This document shows, one piece after another, positions 9,159 through 59,302 of a DNA stretch of 64,000 bases. The number at the start of each line of letters is the position of its first letter. Positions within the stretch are counted from its first letter, which is position 1. The DNA lies in contig JAHISB010000002.1 in NCBI GenBank assembly GCA_018818425.1, positions 2,819-66,818 of the forward strand, read 5' to 3'. The notes below the pieces were generated by a model, which worked only from the letters and a program-made list of their open reading frames with translations, did not search any database and had not been told where the DNA came from. This stretch comes from Patescibacteria group bacterium (lineage in GTDB: Bacteria; Patescibacteriota; Patescibacteriia; UBA1558; UBA10009). The position numbers and the translations under genes are program-made.

Positions 9159-9164
9159 TCGTGC

Positions 9165-9205
9165 CAGCCAAATGCTGGTCAGCCTCTGGCTGATATCGTG
9201 TTTAG
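9165..9205. repeat. copy of the GC-rich tandem-hairpin element family (CCAGCC-N-GCTGG TCAGCC-TCT-GGCTGA)
   Basis: gccagccaaatgctggtcagcctctggctgatatc aligns with copies at 34640-34672 and 35529-35591. Confidence 0.55.
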
Positions 9206-11200: not shown

Positions 11201-11204
11201 AACG

Positions 11205-11440
11205 TTTTGTCTTTCGACTCGTCGCTTTGCTCCTCGCTCAAGATATTCGACTCCTACTATGAGTGGTCGGAGTTTCTGAAGCGCAGCGAAGAAACGAAGA
11301 CTACCACTCGGCCTTGAGCTAGTGGCCGAAAGGTGAGCGGAGCCGAGCGATAGCGAGGCGGAGTCGAATAGTGGTACTGGCTCAAAGAACAGGGCGATAG
11401 CAGTATTTGGCAGCTGGCCAAAGAGATTTGGCCGGGCTAA
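11205..11440. repeat. imperfect ~170 nt palindrome followed by a diverged direct copy of the last ~73 nt of the upstream GH gene
   Basis: 11128-11200 (gene 3' end) and 11367-11440 are ~80% identical and in direct orientation. Between them, arms gctcaag.../...cttgagc and gagtggt/accactc pair. Both arms contain the CTCGGCT-N-CGCTC motif family. Confidence 0.6.
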
Positions 11441-11518
11441 GCCCGAGCGATTAAGTTGAGCTTGCCTTAAGCTTAATGGTCAAATTAAGGCAAAAGATGT
11501 TATAATTATCATTATCAT

Positions 11519-17447: not shown

Positions 17448-17492
17448 TAAAAAATGCGAAAATCGAAATAACAGAGATATCCACTGAAAACA

Positions 17493-17566
17493 CTGACAGT
17501 TCACGGATAACTCACCGAGGACTCACAGATATCAGTGTAACATCAGCCCGAATCAGTGAACTGTCA
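17493..17566. repeat. 12-bp perfect inverted repeat (ctgacagttcac / gtgaactgtcag) enclosing TCAC(N)GAT words
   Basis: Arms at 17493-17504 and 17555-17566. The interior has tcacggat and tcacagat words. The cagcgtatctcagcg motif follows at 17565-17579. Confidence 0.6.
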
Positions 17567-17596
17567 GCGTATCTCAGCGACCTAGGATTTAATAAA

Positions 17597-19658: not shown

Positions 19659-19788
19659 TGATCACTAACGACGCGAACTAACACGAACCTATCACGAACC
19701 GCTGACTAATTAAAGTAGGTTCGCGGTTCGCGGAGGTCAGCGAATGTTTGTGTCGTCAGTGATAAAGTGATAATTCGTGAAATTCAAT

Positions 19789-20334: not shown

Positions 20335-20715
20335 ATGAAAAGCGATTTTATACAATCTTATAGGGATCTTATTGTATGGCAGAAGTCGATGGACCTAGTT
20401 AAAGTCATTTACGAATTGACTAAGCAATTTCCGGAAACAGAGAAATTTGGGCTAATATCCCAAATGAGAAGAGCGGCAGTTTCAATTCCTTCTAATATTG
20501 CCGAAGGGTTCAGAAGAGGCGCTAGAAAGGATTACCGTTACTTTCTGATAATAGCATTTGGCTCTGGCGCGGAATTAGAAACCCAAATAGAAATCTCTAA
20601 AAGGCTGGAATTTTGCAATAATTTTAACTATTCAAAAGTCGATGGTTTACTAGGGGAAATAATGAAAATATTGAATGTATTTATAAAAAAGCTAGGCAAT
20701 AGTACTACAACCTAG
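20335..20715 (+). CDS. four-helix-bundle protein (23S rRNA intervening-sequence protein family, TIGR02436-like)
   Basis: 126 aa. YRDLIVWQKSMDLVKVIYELTKQFPETEKFGLISQMRRAAVSIPSNIAEG...GSGAELETQIEIS closely matches the family consensus. Confidence 0.8.
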   Translation: MKSDFIQSYRDLIVWQKSMDLVKVIYELTKQFPETEKFGLISQMRRAAVSIPSNIAEGFRRGARKDYRYFLIIAFGSGAELETQIEISKRLEFCNNFNYSKVDGLLGEIMKILNVFIKKLGNSTTT

Positions 20716-20754: not shown

Positions 20755-21081
20755 ATGGACAACAAAGGACAATTCAGTTTAAAGCTAATCCAAAAATGCC
20801 CGGTCTGCAATCACGATTATCTGGAGGGCAAAATTCAGATTCTTGAAGAAGCCGATGTCAGCTTTTTGGCTTATTTGACTTGCGGCCATTGCCATTCCAG
20901 CATTATCGTCAGGGTTATGACTCTGCCACACGGCATGGTGGGCAATGCCATACTTACCGACCTTTCCAGCGATGAAGTGGGAAAATTCTCCGAAGCCGAG
21001 GTTTTAAACAGCAACGAAGTTTTACAAGTTTATCAGGAGCTTTGGCAAAGCGAGGGGTTTTTGGAGAAGATGAAACAATAA
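20755..21081 (+). CDS. zinc-ribbon-containing hypothetical protein
   Basis: 108 aa with CPVC...CGHC pairs. Confidence 0.45.
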   Translation: MDNKGQFSLKLIQKCPVCNHDYLEGKIQILEEADVSFLAYLTCGHCHSSIIVRVMTLPHGMVGNAILTDLSSDEVGKFSEAEVLNSNEVLQVYQELWQSEGFLEKMKQ

Positions 21082-21163
21082 TCACAGATAGTTCACGGAT
21101 GAATCACTGATGACTCACGGATATAATTATTAACATTTTATTATTAATTTAAAGATAAATATT

Positions 21164-25973: not shown

Positions 25974-25974
25974 T

Positions 25975-26112
25975 CCGAATATATCACTAATAAATCACGA
26001 ATAATCTCACGAATATGTCACGAATTCACGAATAATCGCGAATAAAAAACTATTAGCGAATTCGTGTGATATTAGAGATGCAGATTAGCGATTTATTAGA
26101 GATATATTCGTG
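25975..26112. repeat. intergenic word palindrome (tcacgaata / tattcgtga words)
   Basis: Forward words in 25980-26040, reverse-complement words in 26050-26112. Confidence 0.5.
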
Positions 26113-27717
26113 TTATTTTATTTTGAACACACTGCTGTCATCAGTTTCAATTTTTTTTTCAAAGAATTCCGGACTCGCTTCCAGGAATTTTTTAAAATCC
26201 TGGTAGATGAAGTAATCGTTAATCCAGATGTATTCAGAATTAAATTGAGTTTTGATGGTTTGGGCGATCATAGCCGGTTGCCGCTGTTCGGCCATACAGC
26301 CCGAGGCCGTTAAATCATCCAAATCAATTAAATCGGCCGGCGCGTTGCAGGCGATTGATTTTTCGGTGATGTTGCGCCAAAGCCAGTAGAGGTTTTTGTC
26401 GTATAAATACATAAAGGTCGGGTCCAGGCCGACAATATAGTAGTTATGGTGATTATGAAAAAATAGTCTGGGGAAAGCATCCCAGGCAGTATGAAAAACT
26501 ATTGATTTTTCAGGGGTGTTGTTTTCAAGCCATTCGGCTGTTTGTTGGTAGCGGCTAATGGGGCAGGCATTTTTATACCCTAAATAGGCTTTTTTTACTG
26601 GTAAAAAGATAAGTGAAAAAAAAGTTAAAATCAATAAAGCTTTGAAAACTGGTTTTCTTATATATTTTTTAAAATCATTTATTAAGTTCTGTTGTTCATA
26701 AGATACCAGTGATTTTTTAAGCAAAGTAAAAGTATGAGCTGTTAAAAGAATTGTAAACGGGACAAAGTATTCTATAAAACGGATTGATTCAATAGTCCAG
26801 AGGCCGTAAAATATTGCTAAAATAAAGAGGGTATAGAGCAATATTTTTTCATTCATAGAGGCAATTTTCTTTTTTAAATAAATAGTTAGGATCCCACATA
26901 TAATTATCATGAAAGAAACTAAAAAAGTATCTTGAAAAAAAGTCAAAGAAGCATGAGCCTGTTCTTGTCCAACAGCCACTCCAGCATTTATTAAATTTAG
27001 ATAAAGAAGATCAAATGTTTGCTGAAAATTAAGAATAACAATATTTGGAAAGTCAGGCCTAATAATCAAAGTTAAAATTAGTGCCAGAAGAGGATAAGTA
27101 TAATATTTTAAATACAGTTTTTTAGTAAACAACCATTCAATAACCGTATAGATAATAATAATGATAAATATTTGTAACCAGCCAGCGTAACTAAGACAAT
27201 AAATTGTTGAAGAAAAAAATAAGAGTCCAAATTTTTTATTATGAACTGCATAAAGAATAATTAGAGTAAGAATAATAGAGATTAAAAAAGGCCGGGAAAT
27301 AAATAGTCGGAAAAAGAATATTGAAGAAGAAAATAATAAGAGGGTCAGCCACAATGTGTGATTTTTTATATCTAGTTTTTTTAAAAAAAATATAAAAAAG
27401 TTTATAAAGAAGAGCAATAATATAAGAACTAAAATTTTTACTGCAATAATTGGGTTTAAAAAAAGAAGCAAAGGATAAAGCAATAAATGGTAACCCAACG
27501 ATAAATCCGCAGGGAACAAGCTCCAGCTGGTATATTGAAACCAAGGAAGCTCGTTAATAACGTTTAAACCGTCCGTATTAAATAATTGAGAAATTTTAAG
27601 ATGATAAAAAATATCAGTGCCAATTATTGTTGGGCGAATAAATAAAATAAAAGTAAATAAAATCAGCAATAATAGATTGTAATAGATAATGGGCTTATTT
27701 TTGATAGCCTTGAACAT
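26113..27717 (-). CDS. GT-C-like integral membrane protein (ArnT/PMT-like putative glycosyltransferase), very AT-rich
   Basis: Track start is TTG 27759; ATG at 27717 gives MFKAIKNK... and sits ~7 nt after a minus-strand TATAAT. 10+ TM with C-terminal soluble domain. GC far below neighbours. Confidence 0.4.
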   Translation of the reverse strand: MFKAIKNKPIIYYNLLLLILFTFILFIRPTIIGTDIFYHLKISQLFNTDGLNVINELPWFQYTSWSLFPADLSLGYHLLLYPLLLFLNPIIAVKILVLILLLFFINFFIFFLKKLDIKNHTLWLTLLLFSSSIFFFRLFISRPFLISIILTLIILYAVHNKKFGLLFFSSTIYCLSYAGWLQIFIIIIIYTVIEWLFTKKLYLKYYTYPLLALILTLIIRPDFPNIVILNFQQTFDLLYLNLINAGVAVGQEQAHASLTFFQDTFLVSFMIIICGILTIYLKKKIASMNEKILLYTLFILAIFYGLWTIESIRFIEYFVPFTILLTAHTFTLLKKSLVSYEQQNLINDFKKYIRKPVFKALLILTFFSLIFLPVKKAYLGYKNACPISRYQQTAEWLENNTPEKSIVFHTAWDAFPRLFFHNHHNYYIVGLDPTFMYLYDKNLYWLWRNITEKSIACNAPADLIDLDDLTASGCMAEQRQPAMIAQTIKTQFNSEYIWINDYFIYQDFKKFLEASPEFFEKKIETDDSSVFKIK

Positions 27718-31116: not shown

Positions 31117-31433
31117 GATTTTCACCCTTACCTTTCTGATATTTTTTTCTTTTATTTTTTTTGACTTTGTTATTAATCCTAGTAAAAAATGGAGAGTCAA
31201 TTTAGAGTTTTTGGTCTTCGGTCATCAATCATCAATTTTCACTAATAGCACAAACTAACAATAGACGAACACAAATATTCACAAACTTAACACAAACTAA
31301 CGTAGTAAATACAGCATTAACTACCCAGTTTTTACCAGGATTGTTTGTCAAAGTCCGTAAATTGACCCCTTACTGTAGCAAATTTTGGCGATTTTGTCAA
31401 CCCAAAAATAAAAAATGGCTGAAGTTAGCCAAA

Positions 31434-31735
31434 TATCACCGATCTATCACAGATGAATCACCGATCTATCACGGATAAATCACTGATAAATCACCGATCT
31501 ATCACGGATAAATCACTGATAAATCACAGATCTATCACGGATAAATCACCGATAAATCACCGATCTATCACCGATAAATCACGGATGAATCACTGATTGA
31601 TAATATAAAGTATCGGTGATTCATCCGTGGATATCCGTGATAGATCCGTGTATCTCCGTGATTTATCGGTGAGCCATCTGTGCGCTATCTGTCGATAGAC
31701 CCCGAGCTTATCGAGGAGTGAACTATCGGTGATTT
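31434..31735. repeat. ~300 bp imperfect palindrome built from ~25 tandem 10-bp units (ATCAC[C/G/T/A]GAT[C/A]TA)
   Basis: ~16 direct units (31434-31598), AT-rich centre (tgataatataaagta), then ~9 reverse-complement units (31610-31700). Extends into the last codons of dusB. Same TCACNGAT words at 17490-17570 and 21082-21125. Confidence 0.8.
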
Positions 31736-32696
31736 ATCCGTGAATTTCAGCCAAGATTTTTTCAATATCCTTAATACTTTCCACTCTTACCAACTCTGTT
31801 CTTAAATCAGAAGCATTTGGCAAACCTTTAACGTACCAGAGCAGGTGTTTGCGCAGTTCAATAAGGCCATGTTCACCTTTTGTTTTAAGAGCTAGTTGAG
31901 CATGCTTTAAGATAATTTGTTTTTTTTCTGGCCAACTGGGTTCTTCAAATTTTCCGGTTTTTAAATAGTCTTTGATTTGCTGAAAAAGCCAAGGTCTGCC
32001 ATAAGTTCCTCTGGCAAGGCCCAGGCCGTCAGCTTTGGTTTTTTTTAATAATTCTTTAGCGTCTTCAGGGGAGTTGACTCCGCCGTTGGCCAGGATTGTG
32101 CCTTTAAAGTATTTTCCGGCCTCTTTAATCATTTGATAGTCAATTTCGCCGCTAAAGCCCTGTTCATAAGAACGGCCGTGGATCATTACAGCGCTAATCG
32201 GCAGGTCAGCCATTTTTTTTAGAAAATCAATAACCGTTACTTTTTTGCCGATTTTTGATTTAATGGAAGTTCTGACTTTAACTGAAACCGGAAGCTTGGT
32301 GTTATCAATCGTCTGTTTTATTAGCTGATAGCATAAATTTAAATCTCTTATCAAAGTTACGCCGCCGCCGTGGCCGACAACTTTGCGGGCCGGACAGCCA
32401 AAGTTAATGTCAATGCCGCCGGCTCCCGACTTTTCGACAATCCGGGCAGCTTCACCGAATTTAGCCGGGTCCTTGCCGAAAAGTTGAACCACTAACGGTT
32501 GTTCAGCTTTTTCAAATTTTAACATCTCCAAAGTTTTTTTGCCTTCAAAAAAAAGCCCGTCCGCCGAAGTCATTTCCGAATAAACAACATCGGCGCCGTA
32601 TAAACGGCACAGCTGCCGAAAAGCCGAGTCGGTAATGCCGGCCATGGGCGCCAAGGCCAGAATCGGTTTATTTATTTGTTGCCAAAAGTTGGGCAT
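31734..32696 (-). CDS. dusB: tRNA-dihydrouridine synthase (DusB-like)
   Basis: 320 aa. LAPMAGITDSAFR, TIM-barrel FMN motifs (GIDINFGCPARKVVGHGGG), C-terminal helical domain. Confidence 0.85.
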   Translation of the reverse strand: MPNFWQQINKPILALAPMAGITDSAFRQLCRLYGADVVYSEMTSADGLFFEGKKTLEMLKFEKAEQPLVVQLFGKDPAKFGEAARIVEKSGAGGIDINFGCPARKVVGHGGGVTLIRDLNLCYQLIKQTIDNTKLPVSVKVRTSIKSKIGKKVTVIDFLKKMADLPISAVMIHGRSYEQGFSGEIDYQMIKEAGKYFKGTILANGGVNSPEDAKELLKKTKADGLGLARGTYGRPWLFQQIKDYLKTGKFEEPSWPEKKQIILKHAQLALKTKGEHGLIELRKHLLWYVKGLPNASDLRTELVRVESIKDIEKILAEIHG

Positions 32697-32699: not shown

Positions 32700-32810
32700 G
32701 TTGGGTGATTAGGTTAATTAGGTGATTAGGTGATTAGGTCTTAGGTCTTTAGTCTTCAATCTTTAGTCCTCAGTCATCAATCCTCAATCCTTAGTCTTCA
32801 GTCTTTAAAA
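32700..32810. repeat. degenerate tandem word repeats (ggtgattag; tcaatcc / tcttcag)
   Basis: The tcaatcc word also recurs at 34620-34680, 38200-38260 and 44810-44870. Confidence 0.5.
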
Positions 32811-32830
32811 TATACCTTTTCAAAGCGGTC

Positions 32831-33329: not shown

Positions 33330-33460
33330 GTTGATTTACAAATTATCACTGATTATCACTGACCACACGAACAGCCACTGACTTGCCACAAACCACTGAC
33401 GAAAAATGTCAGTGGTCAGTGAATGTTCGCGCCGGTTCGCGTCGTTCGCGATTCAGAGGA
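33330..33460. repeat. intergenic word palindrome (atcactga / tcagtg words)
   Basis: attatcactgattatcactgacc...gtcagtggtcagtgaat. Confidence 0.5.
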
Positions 33461-34545: not shown

Positions 34546-34639
34546 GCTAAACTCCTAACAAAAGAACAAGGCACCTCAGCGTATCTCAGCGGTTATCAGT
34601 GAATAATTCTTGATTTTTGATCCTCAATCATCAATCCTC

Positions 34640-34672
34640 CCAGCCAGAGGCTGGTCGGCCTTTGGCCGAAAT
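34640..34672. repeat. short variant of the GC-rich tandem-hairpin element
   Basis: cccagccagaggctggtcggcctttggccgaaatc equals copy B with the inner 28 nt deleted. Confidence 0.6.
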
Positions 34673-34719
34673 CATCAATCCTCATTGTCCTAATTGCCAA
34701 AAAAAGGTATAATTTAGCC

Positions 34720-35244: not shown

Positions 35245-35528
35245 TAGTCTAAAAGTTTTCTTTGAATTTTTTGTGTAGAGTATGAACAATGGGATAATCG
35301 TTGTATTAACAATACCGGTTAGAGAAATTCCAAATCCAAAATCACAAATAACAAATAAATTCCAAATTCCAAAAATAAAATATCACTGATCATCACTAAG
35401 ATATGCTGACCATTTGCTGATACACGCTCGCCTTGAGCGAAGTCGAGAGGCGAAGCAGGCTGATAATCCGCGGATATCAGCGTACCTCGGCGCATCTCGG
35501 CGGTTATTGGTGAATAATTCTCAATCCT

Positions 35529-35591
35529 CCCAGCCAGCCTTCGGCCGTGAGCTCAGGCCGAACGGAGGCTGGTCGGCCTCTGGCCGAAATC
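35529..35591. repeat. full-length GC-rich tandem-hairpin element (copy B)
   Basis: cccagccagccttcggccgtgagctcaggccgaacggaggctggtcggcctctggccgaaatc. 35529-35574 is the exact reverse complement of 54130-54175. Confidence 0.85.
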
Positions 35592-35601
35592 CTCAACATC
35601 A

Positions 35602-38142
35602 ATGCCTCTCATTGCCGACATTTTTTTAAAAAGTTTTTCTACTTTGCTGGCCAATCCATGGGCCATCACTTTTCTAATAGCGATAATTTTTTTTATTGTT
35701 TTGGCAGCAATGGTCAATTTAATCAGAAAAAGTTTTGCCAAAGGCAGCCGTTTGCCGACTGCGCTGCAGCAGCAAATTTTATTGATTTCGGTGCCTAAAG
35801 AGTCATTGCGCGACAAAGAAAGAGCGGCTACCCCCCAAGATATCCAAGATGATATTGGAGCGGCCGAAAATTTATTTTCGGTTTTAGGAAGTTTGTCGGC
35901 CCAGCGGGGCGCCAGGCCATGGCTTTACGGCCGGACCGACCATTTTTCTTTTGAGATGGTGGCTCAAAATGGCCAGATCTTTTTTTATGTGGCAGCGCCT
36001 AATTATTTAAGCGATTCCTTGAAACAGCAGCTGTTAGCGGTTTATCCTCATGCGCATATTGAAGAAGTCAGCGATTATAACTTTTTTTCGCCGCAAGGCG
36101 CGGTTTTGGGCGCCTATTTAAAATTAGGCCGGGAGTTTATTTTTCCCATCAAGACTTTTAAAAAAATGGAAGGCAGCGATCCTTTGGAGGGCTTAGTTAA
36201 TCCTTTAAGCAAGGTGGCTAAGACAGACGGAGCGGCCATTCAATTTATTGTTCGCTCGGCTTATAAAAAGTGGCATCGCAAAGGCATGCGGGTAGCCCGC
36301 GAGATGCAGCAGGGCAAAGCTATGGCTATGGCTCTGCGCCAGGCGGGACTGGGCAATATTTTTGACAAATTTTTTGGTTTATTTAGTTTTATTTTCAGTT
36401 TTTTTAGAACTAAGCCCCAAGATGAGCGCAATTTAGACAAACTGGAAGAACAATACCGGCTTTCACCTATGGAAGAAGAGGCGGTTAAAGGCATAGAAGA
36501 AAAAACCAGCAGGGCCGGTTTTGATGTTAATGTCAGAATTGTAACTTCGGCAGTTAAGCGGGAGCAGGCCAAAAATTATTTAGATAATATTATTAATGCT
36601 TTCGGCCAGTATAATATTTATCAGTATGGCAATGGTTTTAAAAAAATCGCCAAAGTTAATATTGATCGCTTAGTTTCCGATTTTATCAGCCGCTCTTATC
36701 ATTCTAAATACCATTTATTGCTTAACAGCGAAGAAATGACCAGCTTGTGGCATTTGCCTCTGCCTTCCACCGGAGCTCCCAATATTCATTGGCTGGAAGC
36801 CAGAAAAGCCCAGCCGCCCGTCAACCTGCCACAGGAAGGGATTTTGCTGGGCGAGAATATTTACCGCGGAGTTACAACTCCTATAAGAATAAAAGAAGAA
36901 GACCGCCAAAGGCACGTTTATATTATCGGCAAATCGGGCACCGGCAAGTCGGTTCTGCAGGCCAATATGATTATTCAGGATATGCAGAACGGCGAAGGCG
37001 TTTGTGTAATCGATCCGCACGGCGATTTAGTGGAAGCGGTTTTAGAGCATGTGCCGCCGGAACGGGCCGAGGACGTGATTTTATTTGACCCGGCCGACTA
37101 TCAGCGGCCCATGGGCATTAATATGCTGGAGTTTCATAATCCCGAGCAAAAGACCTTTGTTATTAACGAAATGATAAAGATATTTGATAAGCTTTACGAC
37201 TTAAAAGCCACCGGCGGCCCCATGTTTGAGCAGTATATGCGCAACGCCATGCTGTTAATGATGGAAGATTCCCAGTCGGGCTCAACTTTGTTGGAAATTC
37301 CCAAAGTTTTGGCCGATGCCAATTTTAGAAGATACAAACTGTCCCGGTGCGTTAATCCGGTGGTTAAAGATTTTTGGGAAAAAGAAGCGGAAAAGGCCGG
37401 CGGCGAAGCCTCGCTGGCCAATATGGTGCCTTACATAACCAGCAAGCTGACCCCTTTTATCTCCAGCGATTTAATGAGGCCGATTATTGCCCAGCAGAAA
37501 AGTTCTTTTAATTTTCGGGAAGCTATGGACGGCCAGAAGATTATTTTAGTTAAATTATCCAAAGGCGCTATCGGCGAAATGAGCTGTAATTTGCTGGGCA
37601 TGGTTATTGTCGGCAAAATTTTAATGGCGGCCCTTTCCCGGGTAGATATCCCCCAGGAACGGCGCAGAAGTTTTTATTTATATATTGATGAGTTTCAGAA
37701 TTTTATCACCGATACCATTTCCGTTATTCTTTCCGAAGCCCGCAAGTATAAGCTTTGCCTGACCATTGCCCACCAGTACATCGGCCAGCTGGTCAAAAAT
37801 AACGATACCTCTATCCGCGACGCTGTAATGGGCAATGCCGGAACTATGATTGCTTTTAGAATCGGCCCTGATGATGCCGAAATAGTGGCTAAACAGCTGG
37901 CCCCGGTTTTTAATGAGTACGATGTAATTAATATTCCTAAATATAATGCTTATCTTAAGCTGTTAATTGATAATCAAAACCCGCCGGCTTTTAATATCAA
38001 GCCCCTGCCTCCCCAGCTAGGCGATAAAGCCATAGCCGCTAAAATCAGAGAGCTTTCCAGATTAAAATACGGCCGGGATCGAGAAATAGTTGAACGGGAA
38101 ATTTTAGAAAGAGTGAAGGCGGTTCAAAAGCCGGAAGTGTGA
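35602..38142 (+). CDS. TraD/VirD4 (type IV coupling protein)-like P-loop ATPase with N-terminal TM
   Basis: 846 aa. Walker A IIGKSGTGKS, Walker B-like LYIDEFQNF, TrwB/TraD-type C-terminal domain. The N-terminal ~400 aa is unassigned. Confidence 0.5.
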   Translation: MPLIADIFLKSFSTLLANPWAITFLIAIIFFIVLAAMVNLIRKSFAKGSRLPTALQQQILLISVPKESLRDKERAATPQDIQDDIGAAENLFSVLGSLSAQRGARPWLYGRTDHFSFEMVAQNGQIFFYVAAPNYLSDSLKQQLLAVYPHAHIEEVSDYNFFSPQGAVLGAYLKLGREFIFPIKTFKKMEGSDPLEGLVNPLSKVAKTDGAAIQFIVRSAYKKWHRKGMRVAREMQQGKAMAMALRQAGLGNIFDKFFGLFSFIFSFFRTKPQDERNLDKLEEQYRLSPMEEEAVKGIEEKTSRAGFDVNVRIVTSAVKREQAKNYLDNIINAFGQYNIYQYGNGFKKIAKVNIDRLVSDFISRSYHSKYHLLLNSEEMTSLWHLPLPSTGAPNIHWLEARKAQPPVNLPQEGILLGENIYRGVTTPIRIKEEDRQRHVYIIGKSGTGKSVLQANMIIQDMQNGEGVCVIDPHGDLVEAVLEHVPPERAEDVILFDPADYQRPMGINMLEFHNPEQKTFVINEMIKIFDKLYDLKATGGPMFEQYMRNAMLLMMEDSQSGSTLLEIPKVLADANFRRYKLSRCVNPVVKDFWEKEAEKAGGEASLANMVPYITSKLTPFISSDLMRPIIAQQKSSFNFREAMDGQKIILVKLSKGAIGEMSCNLLGMVIVGKILMAALSRVDIPQERRRSFYLYIDEFQNFITDTISVILSEARKYKLCLTIAHQYIGQLVKNNDTSIRDAVMGNAGTMIAFRIGPDDAEIVAKQLAPVFNEYDVINIPKYNAYLKLLIDNQNPPAFNIKPLPPQLGDKAIAAKIRELSRLKYGRDREIVEREILERVKAVQKPEV

Positions 38143-38169: not shown

Positions 38170-38262
38170 AAACCAATCCATAAAATCAATTTTCAATTTT
38201 CAGTGATTTTTCAATTTCTAATCCTCAATCATAAATCCTCAATCCTTAATCCTTAATTAGTT
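38170..38262. repeat. intergenic word repeats (caattttca; tcaatcc / taatcct)
   Basis: tcaattttcaattttcagtgatttttcaatttctaatcctcaatcataaatcctcaatccttaatcctta. Confidence 0.45.
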
Positions 38263-38787
38263 ATGCTCTATATATCAACTATCCTGGTTTTTATAATTTT
38301 TATTATTTTATTGAACTTCGCCTATGCCGGCGTTTCCGCGGCGCCATGGGTGCCCTCCCGGAAAAAAGATTATCAAAGAGTTTTAGAACTGGCCGGGATT
38401 AAAAATGGAGACACTGTCTACGACCTGGGCAGCGGCGACGGGCGCTGGCTTTTTTATTTTGCTAAGCATTCCCCGGCCCAAGAGATCAGGGGCTATGAAA
38501 TTTCTTTAATCATGTATTTAATTTGCTGGATAAAAAAGTTGTTCAGCGGATATCCACAGGTAAAATTATCCTTTGGCAATTTTTATAAATTTAATTTAAG
38601 TAAAGCTGATGTGCTGATTTGTTTTTTAACTCCCCGGGCCATGAAAAAATTATTGCCTAAATTAAAAAAAGAAATGAAGCCCGGCTCCAGATTAGTTTCC
38701 TACGCTTTCACCATGCCTAATGTGGAAGCTGAAAAAGTAAGCAAGGTTAGCCAAAAAAGCGTGTCTATTTATCTTTATAGATTTTAG
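38263..38787 (+). CDS. small class I SAM-dependent methyltransferase with N-terminal TM
   Basis: 174 aa. Motif I VYDLGSGDGRWLFYFAKH. Confidence 0.5.
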   Translation: MLYISTILVFIIFIILLNFAYAGVSAAPWVPSRKKDYQRVLELAGIKNGDTVYDLGSGDGRWLFYFAKHSPAQEIRGYEISLIMYLICWIKKLFSGYPQVKLSFGNFYKFNLSKADVLICFLTPRAMKKLLPKLKKEMKPGSRLVSYAFTMPNVEAEKVSKVSQKSVSIYLYRF

Positions 38788-39521: not shown

Positions 39522-39608
39522 CCGATAATAAAAATTTTGCCTTTTATCATTCCGAGCTTACCTGAGGAATCTTGTTACTTTAACGATAATCATGTTGTGT
39601 CAAGATCC

Positions 39609-39657
39609 CTCCGCGTTGGCCGTTCGGCCGCGAGCTCACGGCCGAGTGGTCGGGATG
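39609..39657. repeat. diverged copy of the GC-rich tandem-hairpin element (copy D orientation)
   Basis: ccgcgttggccgttcggccgcgagctcacggccgagtggtcggg shares ttcggccg(c/t)gagctca(c/g)ggccga with copies B and D. Confidence 0.6.
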
Positions 39658-39708
39658 ACATTTTAAGCGAAATTTTTTATTTGCCAATTTATCAATCAAT
39701 CGTTATAA

Positions 39709-39836
39709 TATACCCAATTGCTTTAATAAAATAGAAAATACTCCAAAGCGATGCGTTAATATTAATACTAATATTAGATAAAATAATTCAAATTATTCAA
39801 TTAGCAAAATCGGAATTATTAAAGCGAAGGAGTATA
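39709..39836. repeat. ~130 bp AT-rich dispersed element, copy 1 (directly upstream of dnaX)
   Basis: Near-identical to 62841-63006. Ends AAAGCGAAGGAGTATA (SD-like AAGGAG) 9 nt before the dnaX ATG. Internal inverted 7-mers atactcc / ggagtat. Confidence 0.85.
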
Positions 39837-39844
39837 CATTCACT

Positions 39845-40939
39845 ATGTCAACCACTTTATACCGCAAATATCGTCCGCAAACCTTTGCCGAGGTCATCAA
39901 TCAGAACCATGTTAAAGTTACTTTGCGGAACGAGGTTGCTTCCGGCAAACTAGCCCATGCTTATCTTTTTTCGGGCCCAAGGGGCATTGGTAAAACCACT
40001 ATGGCCAGAATTTTGGCCAAGAGCGTCAACTGCCCCAATCAAAAAAAAGCCGAGCCCTGCAATAAGTGCCAGTCGTGCCTAGAAATCACCCAGGGCAACT
40101 GCTTGGATTTAATAGAAATTGACGCCGCTTCCAACCGGGGCATTAACGAAATCAGAGAACTGCGCGAGCACGTTAAGTATGCTCCGAGCAAGAATAAATA
40201 TAAAGTTTTTATCATCGACGAAGTCCATATGCTGACCGCCGAAGCTTTTAACGCCCTGTTAAAAACTTTAGAAGAGCCGCCCGGCCATGTTATTTTTATT
40301 CTGGCCACCACCGAACTTCATCAGCTGCCGGAAACAATTATTTCCCGCTGCCAGCGCTTTGACTTTAGAAAAATTTCTTTTAAAGAAATCGCCGGCCATT
40401 TAGAAATGATTGCGGCCGCCGAAAAAGTCAAGGTGGCTAAAAAGGTTATAGAAACTATCGCCCGCACCAGCGAAGGTTATGTCAGGGATGCTATTTCGCT
40501 CTTGGGCCAGATTTTGGCTTTGGGCGAAAAAGAAATCAGCGAAGCAGAGGCCTCGTTGGTTTTGCCCCGTTCGGACATCAATCAAATCATCATTTTTATC
40601 AAACAGCTTTTAGAACATCAATCGGCCGCAAGCATCCGCTTAATCAACCAGTATCTTAATGACGGCGGAGAGCTGGAAAATTTTACCAAGGAGGCCATCG
40701 AAGTTTTAAGAAAAATTTTGGTAGCTAAAGTAACTGACGGCTGGCAGGAGCTGGCCTGGGAAGTTCCCGAGGAGGAATCAAAATCATTGATGGTTTTGTT
40801 GGAGAAAGTTGAAGCTGATTATTTAGTTCAAGTAATCGAAATTTTGCTGGAGGCCTTGACCCGGCTAAAGCGCGCTGATATAATCCAGCTTCCGCTGGAA
40901 ATGGCCATCGTTAAAATCAGCGAATTAAAGAGTGAATAA
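39845..40939 (+). CDS. dnaX: DNA polymerase III subunit gamma/tau (short form)
   Basis: 364 aa. YRPQTFAEVINQ, Walker A GPRGIGKTT, zinc module CNKCQSC, SRC motif. Confidence 0.85.
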   Translation: MSTTLYRKYRPQTFAEVINQNHVKVTLRNEVASGKLAHAYLFSGPRGIGKTTMARILAKSVNCPNQKKAEPCNKCQSCLEITQGNCLDLIEIDAASNRGINEIRELREHVKYAPSKNKYKVFIIDEVHMLTAEAFNALLKTLEEPPGHVIFILATTELHQLPETIISRCQRFDFRKISFKEIAGHLEMIAAAEKVKVAKKVIETIARTSEGYVRDAISLLGQILALGEKEISEAEASLVLPRSDINQIIIFIKQLLEHQSAASIRLINQYLNDGGELENFTKEAIEVLRKILVAKVTDGWQELAWEVPEEESKSLMVLLEKVEADYLVQVIEILLEALTRLKRADIIQLPLEMAIVKISELKSE

Positions 40940-40944
40940 CTATT

Positions 40945-41005
40945 CGGAGGTCGTCTAATGGCCGCCCGCCTTCGCCTCTCGGCTGCGCTCGAGGCTTCGG
41001 CGGAC
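40945..41005. repeat. tRNA 5'-fragment-like sequence plus CTCGGCT-N-CGCTCGAG motif upstream of tRNA-Gln
   Basis: cggaggtcgtctaatggccgcc resembles the 5' acceptor/D-arm of the downstream tRNA (cggggatcgtctaatggtagga). Followed by cctctcggctgcgctcgaggc. Confidence 0.45.
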
Positions 41006-41061
41006 TTTGATCAGCACATGGAAAATTGTTTTAAATCATTCGAAGCTTCAGCGTAGAATGA

Positions 41062-41135
41062 TCGGGGATCGTCTAATGGTAGGACACTGGGTTCTGGTCC
41101 CAGCAATCGGGGTTCGAGTCCCTGTCCCCGAGCCA
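41062..41135 (+). tRNA. tRNA-Gln (anticodon CUG), CCA encoded
   Basis: Cloverleaf by hand: acceptor TCGGGGA/TCCCCGA (U1-A72), D arm GTCT-AATGGTA-GGAC, anticodon arm CTGGG-TTCTGGT-CCCAG (U33, CUG, G37), variable CAAT, T arm CGGGG-TTCGAGT-CCCTG, discriminator G, CCA. Confidence 0.8.
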
Positions 41136-42939: not shown

Positions 42940-43070
42940 GGTAGCCAAAGGGCTATTTTTTTAGTATAATGTTAGATATGGGAACATGTGAACATGGGAA
43001 CATTAGAACACTTGCTCCCATGCTCCCATGTTCTAATGCTTTAATGCTTTAATGCTTTAATGCTTTAATT
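42940..43070. repeat. intergenic word palindrome (gaacatggga / tcccatgttc) plus tandem aatgcttta x4
   Basis: Word family shared with 63030-63135. Confidence 0.55.
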
Positions 43071-44051
43071 ATGAAACACAATATCATCACCATCGGCGGC
43101 TCAACAGAAGACATCATGTTTTATACCAAAGAAGCCGTGTTGGTCAGAAACAACAAGGATATTCTTAGGCAGCAGTTGCTGGGTTTTGAATTTGGCGCCA
43201 AGATCGTCGGCGAGAAAGTTTTTTTTACTTATGGCGGCGGCGGTTCTAATACGGCTGTCAACTTTTCTAAACTGGGCTTAAAAACCGGCGTTATCACAGC
43301 AATCGGCGATGACGACAACGGCCAGAGAATCATCAAAAATTTCAAAAATAATAAGGTTAGCGCTGCTAATATTCAGACAATCAAAAAAGTCCCCAGCGGG
43401 CTTTCTTTTATTGTCAATTTTTCCGGCACCACCGAGCATGTTATTTTCACTTATCGTTCGGCCAATAATCAGTTGCTAATTTCAGAAAAGAGTTTAAGCA
43501 AAGCCAAAGCAGACTGGTTTTACCTTGCTTCGCTGTCAGGGCCAAAGTGGCCGGCTAATCTGAAAAATATTTTTGAGCATTCCGCCAAAAAGAAAATCAA
43601 GATTGGCTGGAACCCCGGCGCTAGCCAGTTAGCCAAGGGCTATTCATCATTAAAAAAATATCTTCAACAAACAGAAGTTTTAATTTTAAATAAGGACGAA
43701 GCCATTGAACTGGTTTTAAGCTCCGGCTATAAAACGCAAAACATCAATCAACTGTTAAAATATTTAAAACTGATGGGCCCGGCAGTTGTTGCCATAACCC
43801 AAGGCGCTAAAGGAGCTGCGGTTTGCTCCGGCAATCAAATCTGTTCGGAAAAAGCTTTACCAATCCAAGGTATTAATACCACGGGCGCCGGCGATGCCTT
43901 TGGTTCCAGCTTGGTTGCCGGTTTGATTATTTATAAAGATTTAGCCAAAGCTCTAAAACTGGCCATCCATCAGAGTAATTATGTTATCCGAGAAATTGGA
44001 GCGCAGAAAGGGCTGCTTTCGATTGCTCAATTAAAAAAGAATGTTGAATAA
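43071..44051 (+). CDS. PfkB-family carbohydrate kinase
   Basis: 326 aa. C-terminal NTTGAGDAFGSSLVAGL motif. Confidence 0.7.
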   Translation: MKHNIITIGGSTEDIMFYTKEAVLVRNNKDILRQQLLGFEFGAKIVGEKVFFTYGGGGSNTAVNFSKLGLKTGVITAIGDDDNGQRIIKNFKNNKVSAANIQTIKKVPSGLSFIVNFSGTTEHVIFTYRSANNQLLISEKSLSKAKADWFYLASLSGPKWPANLKNIFEHSAKKKIKIGWNPGASQLAKGYSSLKKYLQQTEVLILNKDEAIELVLSSGYKTQNINQLLKYLKLMGPAVVAITQGAKGAAVCSGNQICSEKALPIQGINTTGAGDAFGSSLVAGLIIYKDLAKALKLAIHQSNYVIREIGAQKGLLSIAQLKKNVE

Positions 44052-44689: not shown

Positions 44690-44878
44690 AACAACCAACC
44701 CCTCGATAAACTCGGGGCCTATCGGCAAGAAACAAACAAATTCCAATCCCCGATTATCCCCGATTCAATCGGGGAGGGGACAAATTACAAATAACAAATA
44801 AATCCCAAAATACAAATCCTCAATCCTCAATCCTTAAGCTTCAATCCTCAATCCTTTAAGCTTTGAGTTTTAAGATTT
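44690..44878. repeat. intergenic region of G/C-clamped mini-hairpins and tcaatcc word repeats
   Basis: cccctcgataaactcgggg and ccccgattcaatcgggg hairpins, then caaataa and tcaatcctcaatcc words. Confidence 0.5.
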
Positions 44879-50039: not shown

Positions 50040-50040
50040 T

Positions 50041-50160
50041 CTTGTATCGCTGTTCGTGTATCGTATATCGTGTATCGTAATCGTGTATCGTGTATCTCTA
50101 TCATCATTATTAAATAATTCAATAATTAACGATACACGATACACGAACAGCGATATACGA
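50041..50160. repeat. intergenic word palindrome (cgtgtatcg / cgatacacg words)
   Basis: Forward words 50041-50100, reverse-complement words 50120-50160. Confidence 0.6.
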
Positions 50161-51480: not shown

Positions 51481-51525
51481 TCAATGAACAGTGATCAATA
51501 AACAATAATCAATGAACAATGATTT

Positions 51526-51580
51526 TCTTTGTCATTTCGGGCGGAATGAAATGGAGCCCAAGAAATCTCTTAAAATGCCT
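51526..51580. repeat. TTTGTCATTTCG(G/A)GCGGAATGAAATGGAG element copy
   Basis: Near-identical over ~50 nt to 58627-58678. Confidence 0.7.
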
Positions 51581-54077: not shown

Positions 54078-54176
54078 ACCGAAGACTTCGGCCATGAGCC
54101 ATAGGCCATCATCCTTTGGCTGAAAGGCCGACCAGCCTCCGTTCGGCCTGAGCTCACGGCCGAAGGCTGGCTGGGA
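54078..54176. repeat. GC-rich tandem-hairpin element, copy D (inverted relative to copy B)
   Basis: 54130-54175 is the exact reverse complement of 35529-35574. The flanks share the ggctggtcggcct core. Confidence 0.85.
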
Positions 54177-56241: not shown

Positions 56242-56251
56242 GTTGCTAGGC

Positions 56252-56390
56252 TGAATAAGTTTGATAAGTCATATAAGTTTAATGAGTTTAATAAGTTGAG
56301 TAAGTTCGATAAACTACGGAAGTAAACTTATTCAACTTATTCAACATATTCAACTTATTCAACGTATTCAACTTATTCAACATTTTAAAT
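56252..56390. repeat. intergenic palindrome of ~14 nine-bp units (gaataagtt ... aacttattc)
   Basis: Seven forward units, centre acggaagta, seven reverse-complement units. Confidence 0.75.
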
Positions 56391-58604: not shown

Positions 58605-58626
58605 AAATCCATTGAGAGTTCATTAC

Positions 58627-58678
58627 TCTTTGTCATTTCGAGCGGAATGAAATGGAGTCGAGAAATCCCTTAAGAAAG
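58627..58678. repeat. TTTGTCATTTCGAGCGGAATGAAATGGAG element upstream of the GIY-YIG gene
   Basis: Matches 51526-51580. Preceded by atccattgagagttcattac, related to 53557-53576. Confidence 0.7.
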
Positions 58679-58686
58679 GCGATTAT

Positions 58687-58989
58687 ATGGTAAAAAGAGA
58701 ATATAACTTTTATGTTTATATCATGGCCAGCGCATCAGGCACATTATATGTGGGCATGACTAATGATTTAGAACGTCGGGTAGATGAGCATAAACGAGGA
58801 TTAATTGAATGCTTTACTAAAAAGTATTCATGTCATAAATTAGTCTATTATGAACATTTTACGGATGTTTATGAAGCTATTGAAAGAGAAAAACAGATAA
58901 AAAGATGGCGCAGAGAAAAAAAACAGAACCTTATCAGAACTATTAACCCTATCTGGAAAGATTTAGGTTTAGAATCAGAATGGGAATAA
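58687..58989 (+). CDS. GIY-YIG nuclease family protein (small, standalone)
   Basis: 100 aa. YNFYVYIMASASGTLYVGMTNDLERRVDEHKRG... (GIY...YVG motif, Arg, Glu). Confidence 0.75.
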   Translation: MVKREYNFYVYIMASASGTLYVGMTNDLERRVDEHKRGLIECFTKKYSCHKLVYYEHFTDVYEAIEREKQIKRWRREKKQNLIRTINPIWKDLGLESEWE

Positions 58990-59023
58990 TCATTTTTCTT
59001 TTTATTTCATTATCCTTTGTCAT

Positions 59024-59136
59024 TTCGACTGGAGCGGAGCGGAACGGAGAAATCCCTTGATTAGAAGAAGTAAGGGATCTCTCCGCTCACCTTCATTCAC
59101 TTCGCTCATTACGGTTCGGTCGAGATGACAAAGAGG
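59024..59136. repeat. TGTCATTTCGAC-family nested hairpin downstream of the GIY-YIG gene
   Basis: cctttgtcatttcgac / gtcgagatgacaaagagg outer stem. ggagaaatccctt / aagggatctctcc inner stem. Confidence 0.7.
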
Positions 59137-59302
59137 GTCAAAATAACAGCGATTATCAAAACACAATGAAATTAATAAAAAACAGCCACTAAAAGATGGC
59201 TGTCTCACTCTATATCGCTATAGAGCGCTGAAATTTTTCAATTAAATTATAAGCAAATGGTTTTTAACTTGTAACTAATTTATCAACATATCCAATTCCA
59301 TT

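What the first reader, a model, noticed from the sequence alone, without database searches (positions are those of the whole stretch)
35529..35591. Family of GC-rich tandem-hairpin elements (at least 5 copies), including an exact 46-nt inverted pair 18.6 kb apart
Copy B is cccagccagcc-ttcggccgtgagctcaggccgaa-cggaggctgg tcggcctctggccga. It has a nested hairpin (CCAGCC/GGCTGG enclosing TTCGGCC/GGCCGAA) followed by a second hairpin (TCGGCC/GGCCGA). 35529-35574 is the exact reverse complement of 54130-54175. Shorter or diverged copies lie at 34640-34672 (inner 28 nt deleted), 39609-39657 and 9165-9205. All sit in 5' regions or spacers, upstream of the 34720 gene, the 35602 ATPase, dnaX, holB and the 9236 permease. 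They are strongly GC-biased in an AT-rich genome. This is REP/BIME-like behaviour, or a small structured RNA family. Perfect identity between two copies indicates recent mobility or gene conversion.
Basis: seen in the sequence. Interest (0 to 1): 0.65.

Follow-up and report, generated by a model that had tools for sequence, protein, structure and literature searches.

The report
Tiny GC-rich palindrome inserted into hairpin repeats
The GC-rich hairpins are real repeats, and the inner one is a 28-30-base palindromic element that has been inserted precisely into other hairpin repeats in many bacterial phyla, with a base-pairing pattern that a simple hairpin does not explain.

Summary
The window comes from a Patescibacteria contig with GC 0.40. 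It holds a mosaic family of GC-rich palindromes.

- **Host element:** a lineage-specific double hairpin, CCAGCC..GGCTGG followed by TCGGCC..GGCCGA. Four copies lie in the window and a fifth lies further along the contig.
- **Inserted core:** the loops of the host take small insertions. One of these is a discrete 28-30-nt core, CC-N-Y-TCGG-CC-N-Y-GAGCTC-R-N-GG-CCGA-R-N-GG.
- **Distribution of the core:** it is not specific to this genome. It occurs in about 160 different sequence contexts, in assemblies labelled as at least five bacterial phyla.
- **Insertion behaviour:** 35 non-self host contexts also have a contiguous "empty" paralogue. In these the core is a precise insertion with no target duplication, at G^C in 29 of 35. 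Hosts include Ssn-type GTCAT hairpins; the core also sits in its own centre (GAG^CTC).
- **Pairing pattern:** the four variable positions pair in crossing, pseudoknot-like order (96% and 93% Watson-Crick, all four pair types). The nested-hairpin register is avoided (3-4%).
- **Negative results:** no Rfam family matches, the window has no RAYT or other transposase, the elements have no terminator T-tract, and no protein family recurs next to them.

Best reading: an ultra-small non-autonomous insertion element that works like REP or cyanobacterial SDR elements but is a member of neither. The mobilising enzyme is unknown.

The parts
35538..35565 (+). Core, short 28-nt form: CC-T-TCGG-CCGT-GAGCTC-A-GG-CCGA-ACGG. 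It is inserted in the loop of the host hairpin.
   Evidence: It is absent from the paralogous site at 34640. Box CCGT pairs with ACGG. The short form lacks position 3 and its partner, position 20, together.
35530..35572 (+). Host hairpin 1: arms CCAGCC (35530-35535) and GGCTGG (35567-35572). The loop AG^AG is split by the core.
   Evidence: fold of 35529-35591: -36.4 kcal/mol, z = -4.4. The empty version is at 34640-34654.
35573..35587 (+). Host hairpin 2: TCGGCC-TCT-GGCCGA. Its loop is complementary to the loop of hairpin 1 (AGA against TCT).
54139..54166 (-). Core, short form. An identical copy in inverted orientation, 18.6 kb away.
   Evidence: (pair I2).
54132..54174 (-). Host hairpin 1 of the inverted composite: CCAGCC at 54132-54137 and CTGGCTGG at 54167-54174 on the + strand.
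54088..54131 (-). Host hairpin 2 of the inverted composite. The stem (TCGGCC 54088-54093, GGCCGA 54126-54131) is intact. The loop holds a different 29-nt insertion at 54094-54122 (ATGAGCCATAGGCCAT...).
   Evidence: Read. A related insert (ATGAGCCATAGCCA...) sits in hairpin 1 of the fifth copy, L259:17340-17410.
34640..34669 (+). Empty host double hairpin: CCAGCC-AGA-GGCTGG then TCGGCC-TTT-GGCCGA. It lies in a segment of about 110 nt (34573-34680) that is paralogous to 35484-35598.
   Evidence: families D11, D15; -19.5 kcal/mol, z = -4.0.
9164..9193 (+). Diverged host double hairpin without a core: CCAGCC-AAAT-GCTGG then TCAGCC-TCT-GGCTGA. The second stem carries a two-sided change (TCGG/CCGA to TCAG/CTGA).
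39620..39649 (+). Core, long 30-nt form: CCGT-TCGG-CCGC-GAGCTC-ACGG-CCGA-GTGG.
   Evidence: CCGT pairs with ACGG; CCGC pairs with GTGG through one G-T.
39604..39659 (-). Host of that core: a GTCAT-type hairpin read on the minus strand (GTCATCCCGA ... GGGATC). It resembles the Ssn-related motifs (SRM) and has the core in its loop.
   Evidence: compared with the NTS/SRM description in PMC11893778. It does not match the published SRM search pattern, because the loop is too long.
11304..11333 (+). Core, long form, with one change in the centre: CCAC-TCGG-CCTT-GAGCTA-GTGG-CCGA-AAGG. It lies in a cluster of GC-rich repeats (11201-11518).
   Evidence: (pair I21).

Best explanation
The reported hairpins are a mosaic of small GC-rich palindromic repeats.

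**Host.** The outer part is a lineage-specific double-hairpin repeat: CCAGCC..GGCTGG, then TCGGCC..GGCCGA. Its loops are hot spots for small insertions.

**Inserted core.** The inner hairpin is a copy of a discrete 28-30-nt element. Counting the two flanking target bases, it reads G|CC-N-Y-TCGG-CC-N-Y-GAGCTC-R-N-GG-CCGA-R-N-GG|C.

**What is shown.**
- The core is a precise insertion with no target-site duplication.
- It lands mostly at a G^C step.
- It sits inside other repeats, in its own centre (GAG^CTC), and in Ssn-type GTCAT hairpins.
- It occurs in assemblies labelled as several phyla.

**What is inferred.**
- It is a non-autonomous, essentially selfish mini-element, propagated through a single-stranded stage.
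- The stage is probably DNA, because the consensus is its own reverse complement and so works on either strand. An RNA stage is not excluded.
- An enzyme supplied in trans mobilises it. That enzyme is not identified.
- Each terminus of the insertion, together with the adjoining target base, pairs with an internal tetranucleotide: positions 0-4 with 19-23, and 8-12 with 27-31.
- I take these two crossing helices to be the alignment or recognition structure for cutting and joining. The analogy is with guide/cleavage-site pairing in IS200/IS605 or an internal guide sequence.
- The competing perfect hairpin is kept weak by obligatory mismatches.

**Effect on the host.** In this genome the likely effects are incidental. 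The elements add stable hairpins to intergenic DNA and, at 35.5 kb, probably to an operon transcript.
For: **Insertion nature.**
- Paralogous filled and empty sites in the window differ by exactly 28 nt.
- Across the fetched loci, 38 distinct flank contexts have contiguous empty counterparts. Thirty-five are non-self hosts. None has a duplication, and the junction is G^C in 29 of 35.
- The core is found nested in its own centre and next to half-units.
- The same host hairpin occurs with three different loop contents on one contig.

**Breadth.**
- True members occur in loci with GC from 0.30 to 0.70. Their record titles name Patescibacteria, Desulfobacterales/deltaproteobacteria, Planctomycetota, Chthoniobacterales/Verrucomicrobia, Chitinivibrionales and Gammaproteobacteria.
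- There are 160 distinct contexts, and the flanks carry no conservation beyond G0 and C31.

**Pairing.**
- Mutual information is 1.70 bits for positions 3:20 (96% Watson-Crick) and 1.56 bits for 11:28 (93%).
- The covariation score for the crossing helices is 0.442 against 0.139 in shuffles (0 of 500 reach it), with CG/AU/UA/GC counts of 33/25/23/19.
- In the hairpin register the variable sites are unpaired in 91 and 83 of 103 sequences, which is less pairing than in every shuffle.
- Those mismatches cost about 12 kcal/mol relative to a perfect palindrome.

**Location and context.**
- 16% of cores lie inside crude ORFs, against 79% coding sequence in the same loci. Flanking gene orientations are mixed.
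- In relatives of this genome the 174-aa gene and the ATPase gene are 3 nt apart and no core is present. Here the gap is 357 nt of repeats.
Against: - No mobilising enzyme was found. No protein family recurs next to the core, and the window has no transposase.
- For a naked strand the mismatched nested hairpin (mean -17.6 kcal/mol) is still more stable than the two crossing helices (about -12 before any pseudoknot penalty). The crossing structure therefore needs a partner, or forms only transiently.
- The 22 constant positions were fixed by my search patterns, so their conservation is partly ascertainment.
- 'Empty' sites are paralogues, not orthologous alleles. Precise deletion or gene conversion between repeats would give the same picture.
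- All true members come from metagenome assemblies. Isolate plasmids gave only one degenerate copy.
- Nothing here tells DNA from RNA.
Confidence: 0.55

Rival explanations
1. A functional structured RNA. The core would be a small H-type pseudoknot (two 5-bp stems; loops UCG, GAGCUC and CGA) that acts in transcripts as a regulatory, stabilising or protein-binding element. Its spread would be secondary.
For: - The crossing covariation, with all four pair types and negative design against the competing hairpin, is what a selected pseudoknot looks like.
- Copy B probably lies inside an operon transcript, because the two flanking genes abut in relatives.
Against: - The consensus is exactly its own reverse complement, which is unexpected for an RNA that is read from one strand.
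- It occurs in 160 unrelated contexts and is nested in itself and in other repeats.
- It has no gene association.
- G-U pairs are no more common than other mismatches.
- No Rfam family matches.
- The hairpin is more stable than the pseudoknot.
Confidence: 0.15
2. A by-product of replication or repair at hairpins rather than a mobile element. Palindromic repeats would grow from their centre, and exchange apices, by template switching or gene conversion between copies. Perfect palindromes would then be removed by selection.
For: - 15-nt half-units are gained and lost individually (L187/L257 against L216/L253 against L162).
- Insertions sit at hairpin apices or at GAG^CTC.
- Perfect palindromes are avoided.
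- No enzyme gene was found.
Against: - The same 30-nt sequence appears, with precise boundaries, in about 35 unrelated hosts and in several phyla.
- Template switching in the most stable register would make positions 3 and 28 complementary. That is the opposite of what is seen.
Confidence: 0.1
3. Cognate sites of a small single-strand-specific nuclease of the Ssn (GIY-YIG) kind. The hairpins would be Ssn-related motifs, or a sister class bound as ssDNA, acting on incoming or replicating DNA.
For: - PMC11893778 shows that GTCAT-type hairpin repeats are bound and cut as ssDNA by Ssn proteins, and that they flank ssn genes.
- The window has a GIY-YIG ORF at 58687-58989 flanked by GTCATT hairpin repeats (family D7, 62).
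- The host of copy C is GTCAT-type.
- Cores often sit in such hairpins.
Against: - The core and the CCAGCC/TCGGCC double hairpin lack the GTCWY signature.
- The published SRM search pattern has no hit in the window.
- GIY-YIG ORFs lie near the core in only 3 of 174 loci.
- Ssn sites are directional, whereas the core is strand-symmetric.
Confidence: 0.1
4. REP/BIME elements mobilised by a RAYT (IS200-like tyrosine transposase).
For: - Short GC-rich extragenic palindromes, in both orientations and in mosaics.
- Insertion without duplication fits HUH chemistry.
Against: - No Y1 transposase in the window.
- No conserved 5' GTAG-like tetranucleotide.
- No REPIN-type doublets.
- The sequence is shared across phyla, whereas each REP family is tied to its own RAYT lineage (my knowledge of the REP/RAYT literature).
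- No excess between convergent genes.
Confidence: 0.06
5. Intrinsic terminators or attenuators.
For: - Stable GC-rich hairpins lie downstream of genes and upstream of promoter-like sites (34685-34713 and 39681-39709).
Against: - No T-tract follows the hairpins, and none was called by the terminator scan.
- 15 cores lie between divergent genes against 8 between convergent genes.
- The core nests in itself.
Confidence: 0.04

Closest known systems
Small dispersed repeats (SDR1-8) of heterocyst-forming cyanobacteria (Elhai et al. 2008, Genome Res 18:1484). The paper is not held in the library. I cite it from memory and through PMC5861425 and PMC3116915.
   Same: - Very small size (21-27 nt there, 28-30 nt here).
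- Dispersed in intergenic DNA.
- Found inside copies of themselves.
- Embedded in tandem heptamer arrays. Here TCAATCC arrays flank copies at 34.6 and 35.5 kb.
- Inserted in another short palindrome (SDR5 in HIP1).
- Structure supported by compensatory changes.
- No enzyme known.
   Different: - SDRs are reported as confined to one cyanobacterial subgroup. This core is shared by assemblies labelled as at least five phyla.
- Sequence relatedness could not be tested.
- To my knowledge the crossing pairing and the avoided hairpin register are not described for SDRs.
REP / BIME / REPIN elements with RAYT transposases
   Same: - Short GC-rich extragenic palindromes in many copies and both orientations, combined into mosaics.
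- Probably handled as single-stranded hairpins.
- No target duplication.
   Different: - No RAYT in the window, no conserved 5' tetranucleotide, and no doublet (REPIN) organisation.
- Not lineage-specific.
- No bias towards the 3' ends of genes.
Ssn-related motifs (NTS/SRM) and Ssn GIY-YIG ssDNA nucleases (PMC11893778)
   Same: - Widespread 20-50-nt hairpin repeats that act as ssDNA.
- Present in this window (GTCATT repeats around a GIY-YIG gene at 58.6-59.1 kb).
- They are frequent hosts of the core, including the host of copy C.
   Different: - The core lacks GTCWY and the directional flanks.
- It is strand-symmetric.
- It is not linked to GIY-YIG genes (3 of 174 loci).
IS200/IS605-family single-strand transposition (guide / cleavage-site pairing)
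   Same: - Insertion without duplication.
- Reliance on DNA secondary structure.
- Short base-pairing between an element end and an internal tetranucleotide that crosses a hairpin.
   Different: - No TnpA was found.
- The only target signal is G^C.
- The element is 30 nt long and symmetric.
- This comparison is a mechanistic analogy only.
Mobile GC clusters and hairpin elements of organelle genomes (yeast mitochondrial GC clusters, double-hairpin elements, sponge RHEs; PMC2800124)
   Same: GC-rich hairpin-forming mini-elements that invade AT-rich intergenic DNA and one another.
   Different: They are found in organelles, have unrelated sequences, and show no comparable cross-lineage conservation or crossing covariation.

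Membership tests
REP/REPIN-RAYT | Short imperfect GC-rich palindrome, extragenic, multi-copy | tested here: met
   (16% of cores inside ORFs against 79% coding sequence).
REP/REPIN-RAYT | Conserved tetranucleotide (GTAG-like) at the 5' foot of the hairpin | tested here: not met
   Flank entropy is about 2 bits at every flank position except G0 and C31.
REP/REPIN-RAYT | RAYT (Y1 HUH transposase) gene in the genome, usually flanked by its REPs | tested here: inconclusive
   No Y1_Tnp or any other transposase among the window ORFs scanned with Pfam. Only 73 kb of the genome could be seen.
REP/REPIN-RAYT | Sequence family restricted to one lineage that co-evolves with its RAYT | tested here: not met
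   The same core occurs in assemblies labelled as at least five phyla.
Ssn-related motif (SRM/NTS) | Match to HGTCWY-N0-2-YYVSBRH-N0-5-WNVSBRG-N0-2-RNCYNB | tested here: not met
   0 hits in the window on either strand. The core and the double hairpin have no GTCWY.
Ssn-related motif (SRM/NTS) | Flanks a small single-domain GIY-YIG (ssn) gene | tested here: not met
   For the core, a GIY-YIG ORF lies within the locus in 3 of 174 loci. The feature is met only for the separate GTCATT repeats around 58687-58989. Membership of that protein in cd10448 was not tested.
MITE (DDE-transposase derived) | Terminal inverted repeats plus target-site duplication | tested here: not met
   Empty sites are contiguous, with no duplicated bases, in 38 contexts.
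Cyanobacterial SDR elements | Size of 21-27 nt, nested in themselves, embedded in heptamer arrays | tested here: met
   Size 28-30 nt. Self-nesting at GAG^CTC. TCAATCC heptamers flank the copies at 34.6 and 35.5 kb (6 families D4/D6).
Cyanobacterial SDR elements | Sequence identity with SDR1-8; confinement to the Nostocaceae subgroup | not testable with these tools
   The paper and its sequences are not held. The taxonomic range here is clearly different. One degenerate copy lies on a Nostocales plasmid.
Any Rfam RNA family | Covariance-model match | tested here: not met
   Only tRNA-Gln passes the gathering score in the window. Nothing relevant appears at E <= 10 over 35450-35650.
Intrinsic terminator | GC-rich hairpin directly followed by a T/U tract, at the 3' ends of genes | tested here: not met
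   None of the elements is called by the terminator scan. There is no excess between convergent genes.
H-type pseudoknot (structural class, RNA or ssDNA) | Two helices in crossing order, supported by covariation | tested here: met
   94.5% of cells paired, four covarying pairs, 0 of 500 shuffles reach the observed score.
H-type pseudoknot (structural class, RNA or ssDNA) | The structure is adopted by the molecule | tested here: inconclusive
   The nested hairpin is predicted to be more stable. There is no pseudoknot energy model or probing data here.

The most novel reading that the evidence does not exclude
The 30-nt core would be a new class of ultra-small mobile element that needs no terminal repeats and makes no target duplication.
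- It would be a strand-symmetric, bistable single-stranded fold.
- Each end, plus the target bases G and C, would be held by an internal guide tetranucleotide next to a palindromic centre (GAGCTC).
- A widespread and still unknown enzyme, or the nucleic acid itself, could then cut and join it precisely into hairpin loops.
- This would explain its horizontal spread across several bacterial phyla.
Probability: 0.2. Interest if true: 0.85.

Novelty: new variant of a known kind. Interest (0 to 1): 0.62.

Why it matters
- If the core is mobile, it is among the smallest insertion elements known and the first with a cross-phylum range. It would also show that hairpin repeats, including Ssn-type motifs, are landing pads for other repeats.
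- The crossing covariation gives a concrete, testable structure: swap two bases and activity should be lost.
- The core is a sequence tag with which the missing enzyme could be found by phylogenetic profiling.
- In practice, these elements inflate the intergenic regions of otherwise compact Patescibacteria genomes. They could confuse annotation of small RNAs, terminators and short ORFs.

Tried and rejected
- **Rfam.** Searched at gathering score and at E <= 10. Nothing relevant.
- **Literature.** Searched by topic and by sequence strings. No description of this core was found. The search for GTCAT strings led to the Ssn/SRM paper. The Elhai 2008 paper is not held.
- **'The core always sits at the tip of a host hairpin'.** Rejected as a general rule. 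Flanks are not complementary above chance beyond G0:C31.
- **Recurrent neighbouring genes.** The top clusters are ABC ATPases, response regulators and similar families, in at most 8 of 174 loci. Small GIY-YIG ORFs appear in 3 of 174 loci.
- **Published SRM pattern.** No hits in the window.
- **Simpler building blocks.** A 16-mer CCNYTCGGCCGARNGG gave 0 hits. The stand-alone 14-mer CCNYGAGCTCRNGG gave 5 hits, which are chance-like. The 30-mer is therefore the unit.
- **Orthologous loci of relatives** (67-78% protein identity). No core is present, so conservation by descent is excluded.
- **Phage contigs.** Only about 5 true members.
- **Isolate plasmids.** Chance-level hits plus one degenerate copy.
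- **Diverged copies by nhmmer.** Few were found, so covariation in the constant TCGG/CCGA block cannot be judged.
- **Explanations for the crossing order that avoid base pairing.** I considered nested inverted self-insertion, att-type hybrid sites, snap-back synthesis and slipped 8-nt registers. None reproduces the order without further assumptions.
- **Resemblance of the 3' half to the tRNA-Ser D-arm.** This comes from memory only. There is no tRNA match.

Full report
**1.

- 35529-35574 is the exact reverse complement of 54130-54175. The repeat finder extends the pair to 59 nt at 95% (pair I2).
- The inner 23-mer occurs twice, and the second-hairpin module three times with up to 3 mismatches. 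Shuffles give 0.00 for both.
- TCGGCC-N3-12-GGCCGA occurs six times against 0.04 expected.
- The other reported copies are in place. All are intergenic, in a window of GC 0.40.
- I add a core copy at 11304-11333.
- I also add a fifth composite on the same contig beyond the window, at L259:17340-17410.
- The window is part of a 91-kb Patescibacteria contig.
- The pair is too short (46 nt) to be a duplication made by an assembly whose contig name indicates k=141. It is also internal and has unrelated flanks.

**2. Anatomy in the window: a host repeat plus insertions**

- The host is a double hairpin: CCAGCC-AGA-GGCTGG followed by TCGGCC-TYT-GGCCGA. It is seen empty at 34640-34669 and, diverged, at 9164-9193. 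The diverged copy carries a two-sided stem change, TCGG/CCGA to TCAG/CTGA.
- 34573-34680 and 35484-35598 are paralogous segments. They differ by exactly 28 nt (35538-35565), which lie in the loop of the first hairpin.
- The 54-kb copy carries the same 28 nt in loop 1 and a different 29-nt insert in loop 2 (54094-54122).
- The fifth copy carries yet another insert in loop 1.
- At 39620-39649 a 30-nt version of the inner unit sits in the loop of a different host. That host is a GTCAT-type hairpin read on the minus strand.
- A second, independent filled/empty pair of a 30-nt hairpin lies in the duplicated region upstream of dnaX: 39700-39838 against 62830-63006, with the insert at 62876-62905.

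**3. The inner unit is not specific to this genome**

- The first group is chance hits inside high-GC coding DNA.
- The second group is true members that share CC-N-Y-TCGG-CC-N-Y-GAGCTC-R-N-GG-CCGA-R-N-GG. They come from loci with GC 0.30-0.70.
- The record titles of the true members name these groups:
  - Patescibacteria (Curtiss-, Kuenen-, Kerfeld- and Peribacteria)
  - Desulfobacterales and other deltaproteobacteria
  - Planctomycetota
  - Chthoniobacterales/Verrucomicrobia
  - Chitinivibrionales
  - Gammaproteobacteria
- Several genomes carry 3-4 copies of a single variant.
- Together these give 160 distinct contexts. The flanks carry no information except G at -1 (80%) and C at +1 (78%).
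- Phage contigs hold about five true members. Isolate plasmids hold one degenerate copy.
- Syntenic loci of the closest relatives lack the core. There the 174-aa gene and the ATPase gene are 3 nt apart, against 357 nt here.

**4. It behaves as a precise insertion**

- For 38 distinct flank pairs, the two 12-nt flanks occur contiguously elsewhere in the fetched DNA, with at most one mismatch each.
- Thirty-five of these hosts are not the core itself. There is never a duplicated base, and the junction is G^C in 29 of 35.
- The hosts include these types:
  - GTCAT-type hairpins (for example GTCATTCCCGCG^AAAGCGGGAATC)
  - other palindromes
  - a MITE-like element
  - the centre GAG^CTC of related units
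- Self-nesting, and the gain or loss of 15-nt half-units, are also seen (L193, L162, and L216/L253 against L187).
- Cores avoid ORFs: 16% lie inside crude ORFs, against 79% coding sequence.
- They lie between co-directional (38), divergent (15) and convergent (8) gene pairs.

**5. An unexpected pairing pattern**

- The four variable sites covary strongly, but in crossing order.
  - Position 3 pairs with 20 (MI 1.70 bits, 96% Watson-Crick).
  - Position 11 pairs with 28 (MI 1.56 bits, 93%).
  - Positions 4:19 and 12:27 are Y:R pairs (91-93%).
- Counted formally on 103 distinct sequences, the two 5-bp helices (0-4:19-23 and 8-12:27-31) are 94.5% paired.
- All four pair types occur. The covariation score is 0.442 against 0.139 in shuffles, and 0 of 500 shuffles reach it.
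- In the nested hairpin that folding programs predict, the same sites are unpaired in 91 and 83 of 103 sequences. That is less pairing than in every shuffle.
- Positions 3 and 11 carry the same base in only 5 of 160 contexts.
- The short form, which is the one in window copy B, has lost position 3 and its partner 20 together.
- The mismatches cost about 12 kcal/mol relative to a perfect palindrome: -17.6 against -29.3.
- Even so, the mismatched hairpin remains more stable than the two crossing helices taken alone.
- The whole consensus, including this pattern, is its own reverse complement.

**6. What it is not**

- No Rfam family matches.
- The elements are not called as terminators. Promoter-like sites lie downstream of two of them.
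- No transposase or RAYT is present among the window ORFs scanned with Pfam.
- No protein family recurs beside the core in 174 loci.
- The published pattern for Ssn-related motifs has no hit in the window.

**7. Link to a known system**

- A sequence-string search led to the Ssn paper (PMC11893778).
- That paper shows that GTCAT-type hairpin repeats (NTS/SRM) are bound and cut, as single-stranded DNA only, by small GIY-YIG nucleases. The genes for these nucleases are flanked by the repeats.
- The window has this arrangement: a 100-aa GIY-YIG ORF at 58687-58989 between GTCATTTCGAG... repeats.
- These hairpins are frequent hosts of the core.
- The core itself lacks the motif and is not linked to GIY-YIG genes.

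**8. Interpretation**

What is shown:
- The family is modular.
- The core is a precise insertion with no duplication and a G^C preference.
- The core has a wide taxonomic range.
- The covariation is crossing, and the hairpin register is avoided.

What is inferred:
- The core is a non-autonomous mini-element handled in single-stranded form.
- Each end, together with the adjoining target base, pairs with an internal guide tetranucleotide. This would explain both the covariation and the G^C preference, since G0 would pair with C23 and C31 with G8.
- The perfect hairpin is kept weak so that this alignment can form.
- The enzyme is unknown.

The rivals are listed with their tests: a selected RNA pseudoknot, a replication or gene-conversion by-product, sites for an Ssn-like nuclease, REP/RAYT, and terminators.

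**9. Comparison and novelty**

- In behaviour the closest precedent is the cyanobacterial SDR elements. They are tiny, nest in themselves, sit in heptamer arrays and insert into HIP1. I cite them from memory and through PMC5861425 and PMC3116915.
- REP/BIME elements and organelle GC clusters are more distant analogues.
- Membership of REP/RAYT, MITE, SRM, any Rfam family and the terminator class fails on at least one defining feature that I tested. RAYT presence could be judged only for the 73 kb seen.
- I found no description of this core, of its cross-phylum range or of its crossing covariation.
- I rate it a new variant of a known kind (very small dispersed palindromic insertions). The mechanism remains open.

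Noticed in passing
window 58619-59140 (also 51518-51570): A 100-aa GIY-YIG ORF (58687-58989; Pfam E = 2e-17) is flanked on both sides by GTCATTTCGAG...GAGAAATCCC hairpin repeats. This is the SRM-ssn-SRM arrangement described for Ssn single-strand nucleases (PMC11893778). The repeats have longer loops than the published search pattern allows.
   Followed up: partly
window 31402-31743, 56247-56389, 63021-63142, 42970-43072, 50040-50160, 25974-26115, 33340-33450, 17488-17590, 19659-19776: Most long intergenic regions are arrays of 7-11-nt tandem repeats followed by the same array inverted, so they form long imperfect palindromes. Heptamer TCAATCC arrays flank the finding's copies and recur at 32744-32812, 38199-38267 and 44794-44876.
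   Followed up: no
window 39700-39838 and 62830-63006: About 140 nt upstream of dnaX is duplicated at about 97% upstream of the 63233 ORF, including an exact 55-mer with the ribosome-binding site. The second copy carries a 30-nt GC-rich hairpin insertion (62876-62905) and an 8-nt tandem duplication. This is a second filled/empty pair.
   Followed up: partly
window 39845-41135: dnaX is 364 aa here but 517-542 aa (with the DnaX_C domain) in five related loci. Downstream, 40946-40962 looks like a partial copy of the 5' end of tRNA-Gln (41062-41135), among GC-rich repeats.
   Followed up: no
window 35245-35601, compared with L133-L137: The 174-aa gene and the TrwB-like ATPase gene are separated by 3 nt in relatives but by 357 nt of repeats here. 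The last hairpin ends 10 nt before the annotated ATG, which leaves no visible ribosome-binding site.
   Followed up: partly
window 60-2470: An MvaI/BcnI-type restriction endonuclease ORF (60-599) lies next to a single 624-aa minus-strand ORF that combines LexA DNA-binding, S24 peptidase and N6/N4 DNA methylase domains.
   Followed up: no
window 20335-20715, with 17488-17532 and 21080-21124: A '23S rRNA-intervening sequence protein' gene sits between grpE and dnaK. A 45-nt repeat (82% identity) lies at 21080-21124, just downstream, and at 17488-17532.
   Followed up: no
L193:430-560, L225, L207, L212, L220, L242: Other short GC-rich units accompany the core in deltaproteobacterial-type contigs, for example TCGA-CCTG-GAGGCTC-TCGA-CAGG and GTCGAAGGACTCANGGYCCTGAG. 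They seem to follow the same block-order-preserving complementarity.
   Followed up: no
L152:191-235: Another Patescibacteria-like contig has a double hairpin, CCGCC-AAA-GGCGG then TCGGCC-TTT-GGCCGA. It is analogous to the window's host element. The first stem has changed on both sides, and the two loops are again complementary.
   Followed up: no
L258:151-176 (Brasilonema plasmid CP030123.1): A degenerate short-form core (CTTCGGCCGTGATCTCAGCCGAACGG) lies in AT-rich intergenic DNA of a Nostocales plasmid. It is the only copy seen in a deposited plasmid record.
   Followed up: partly
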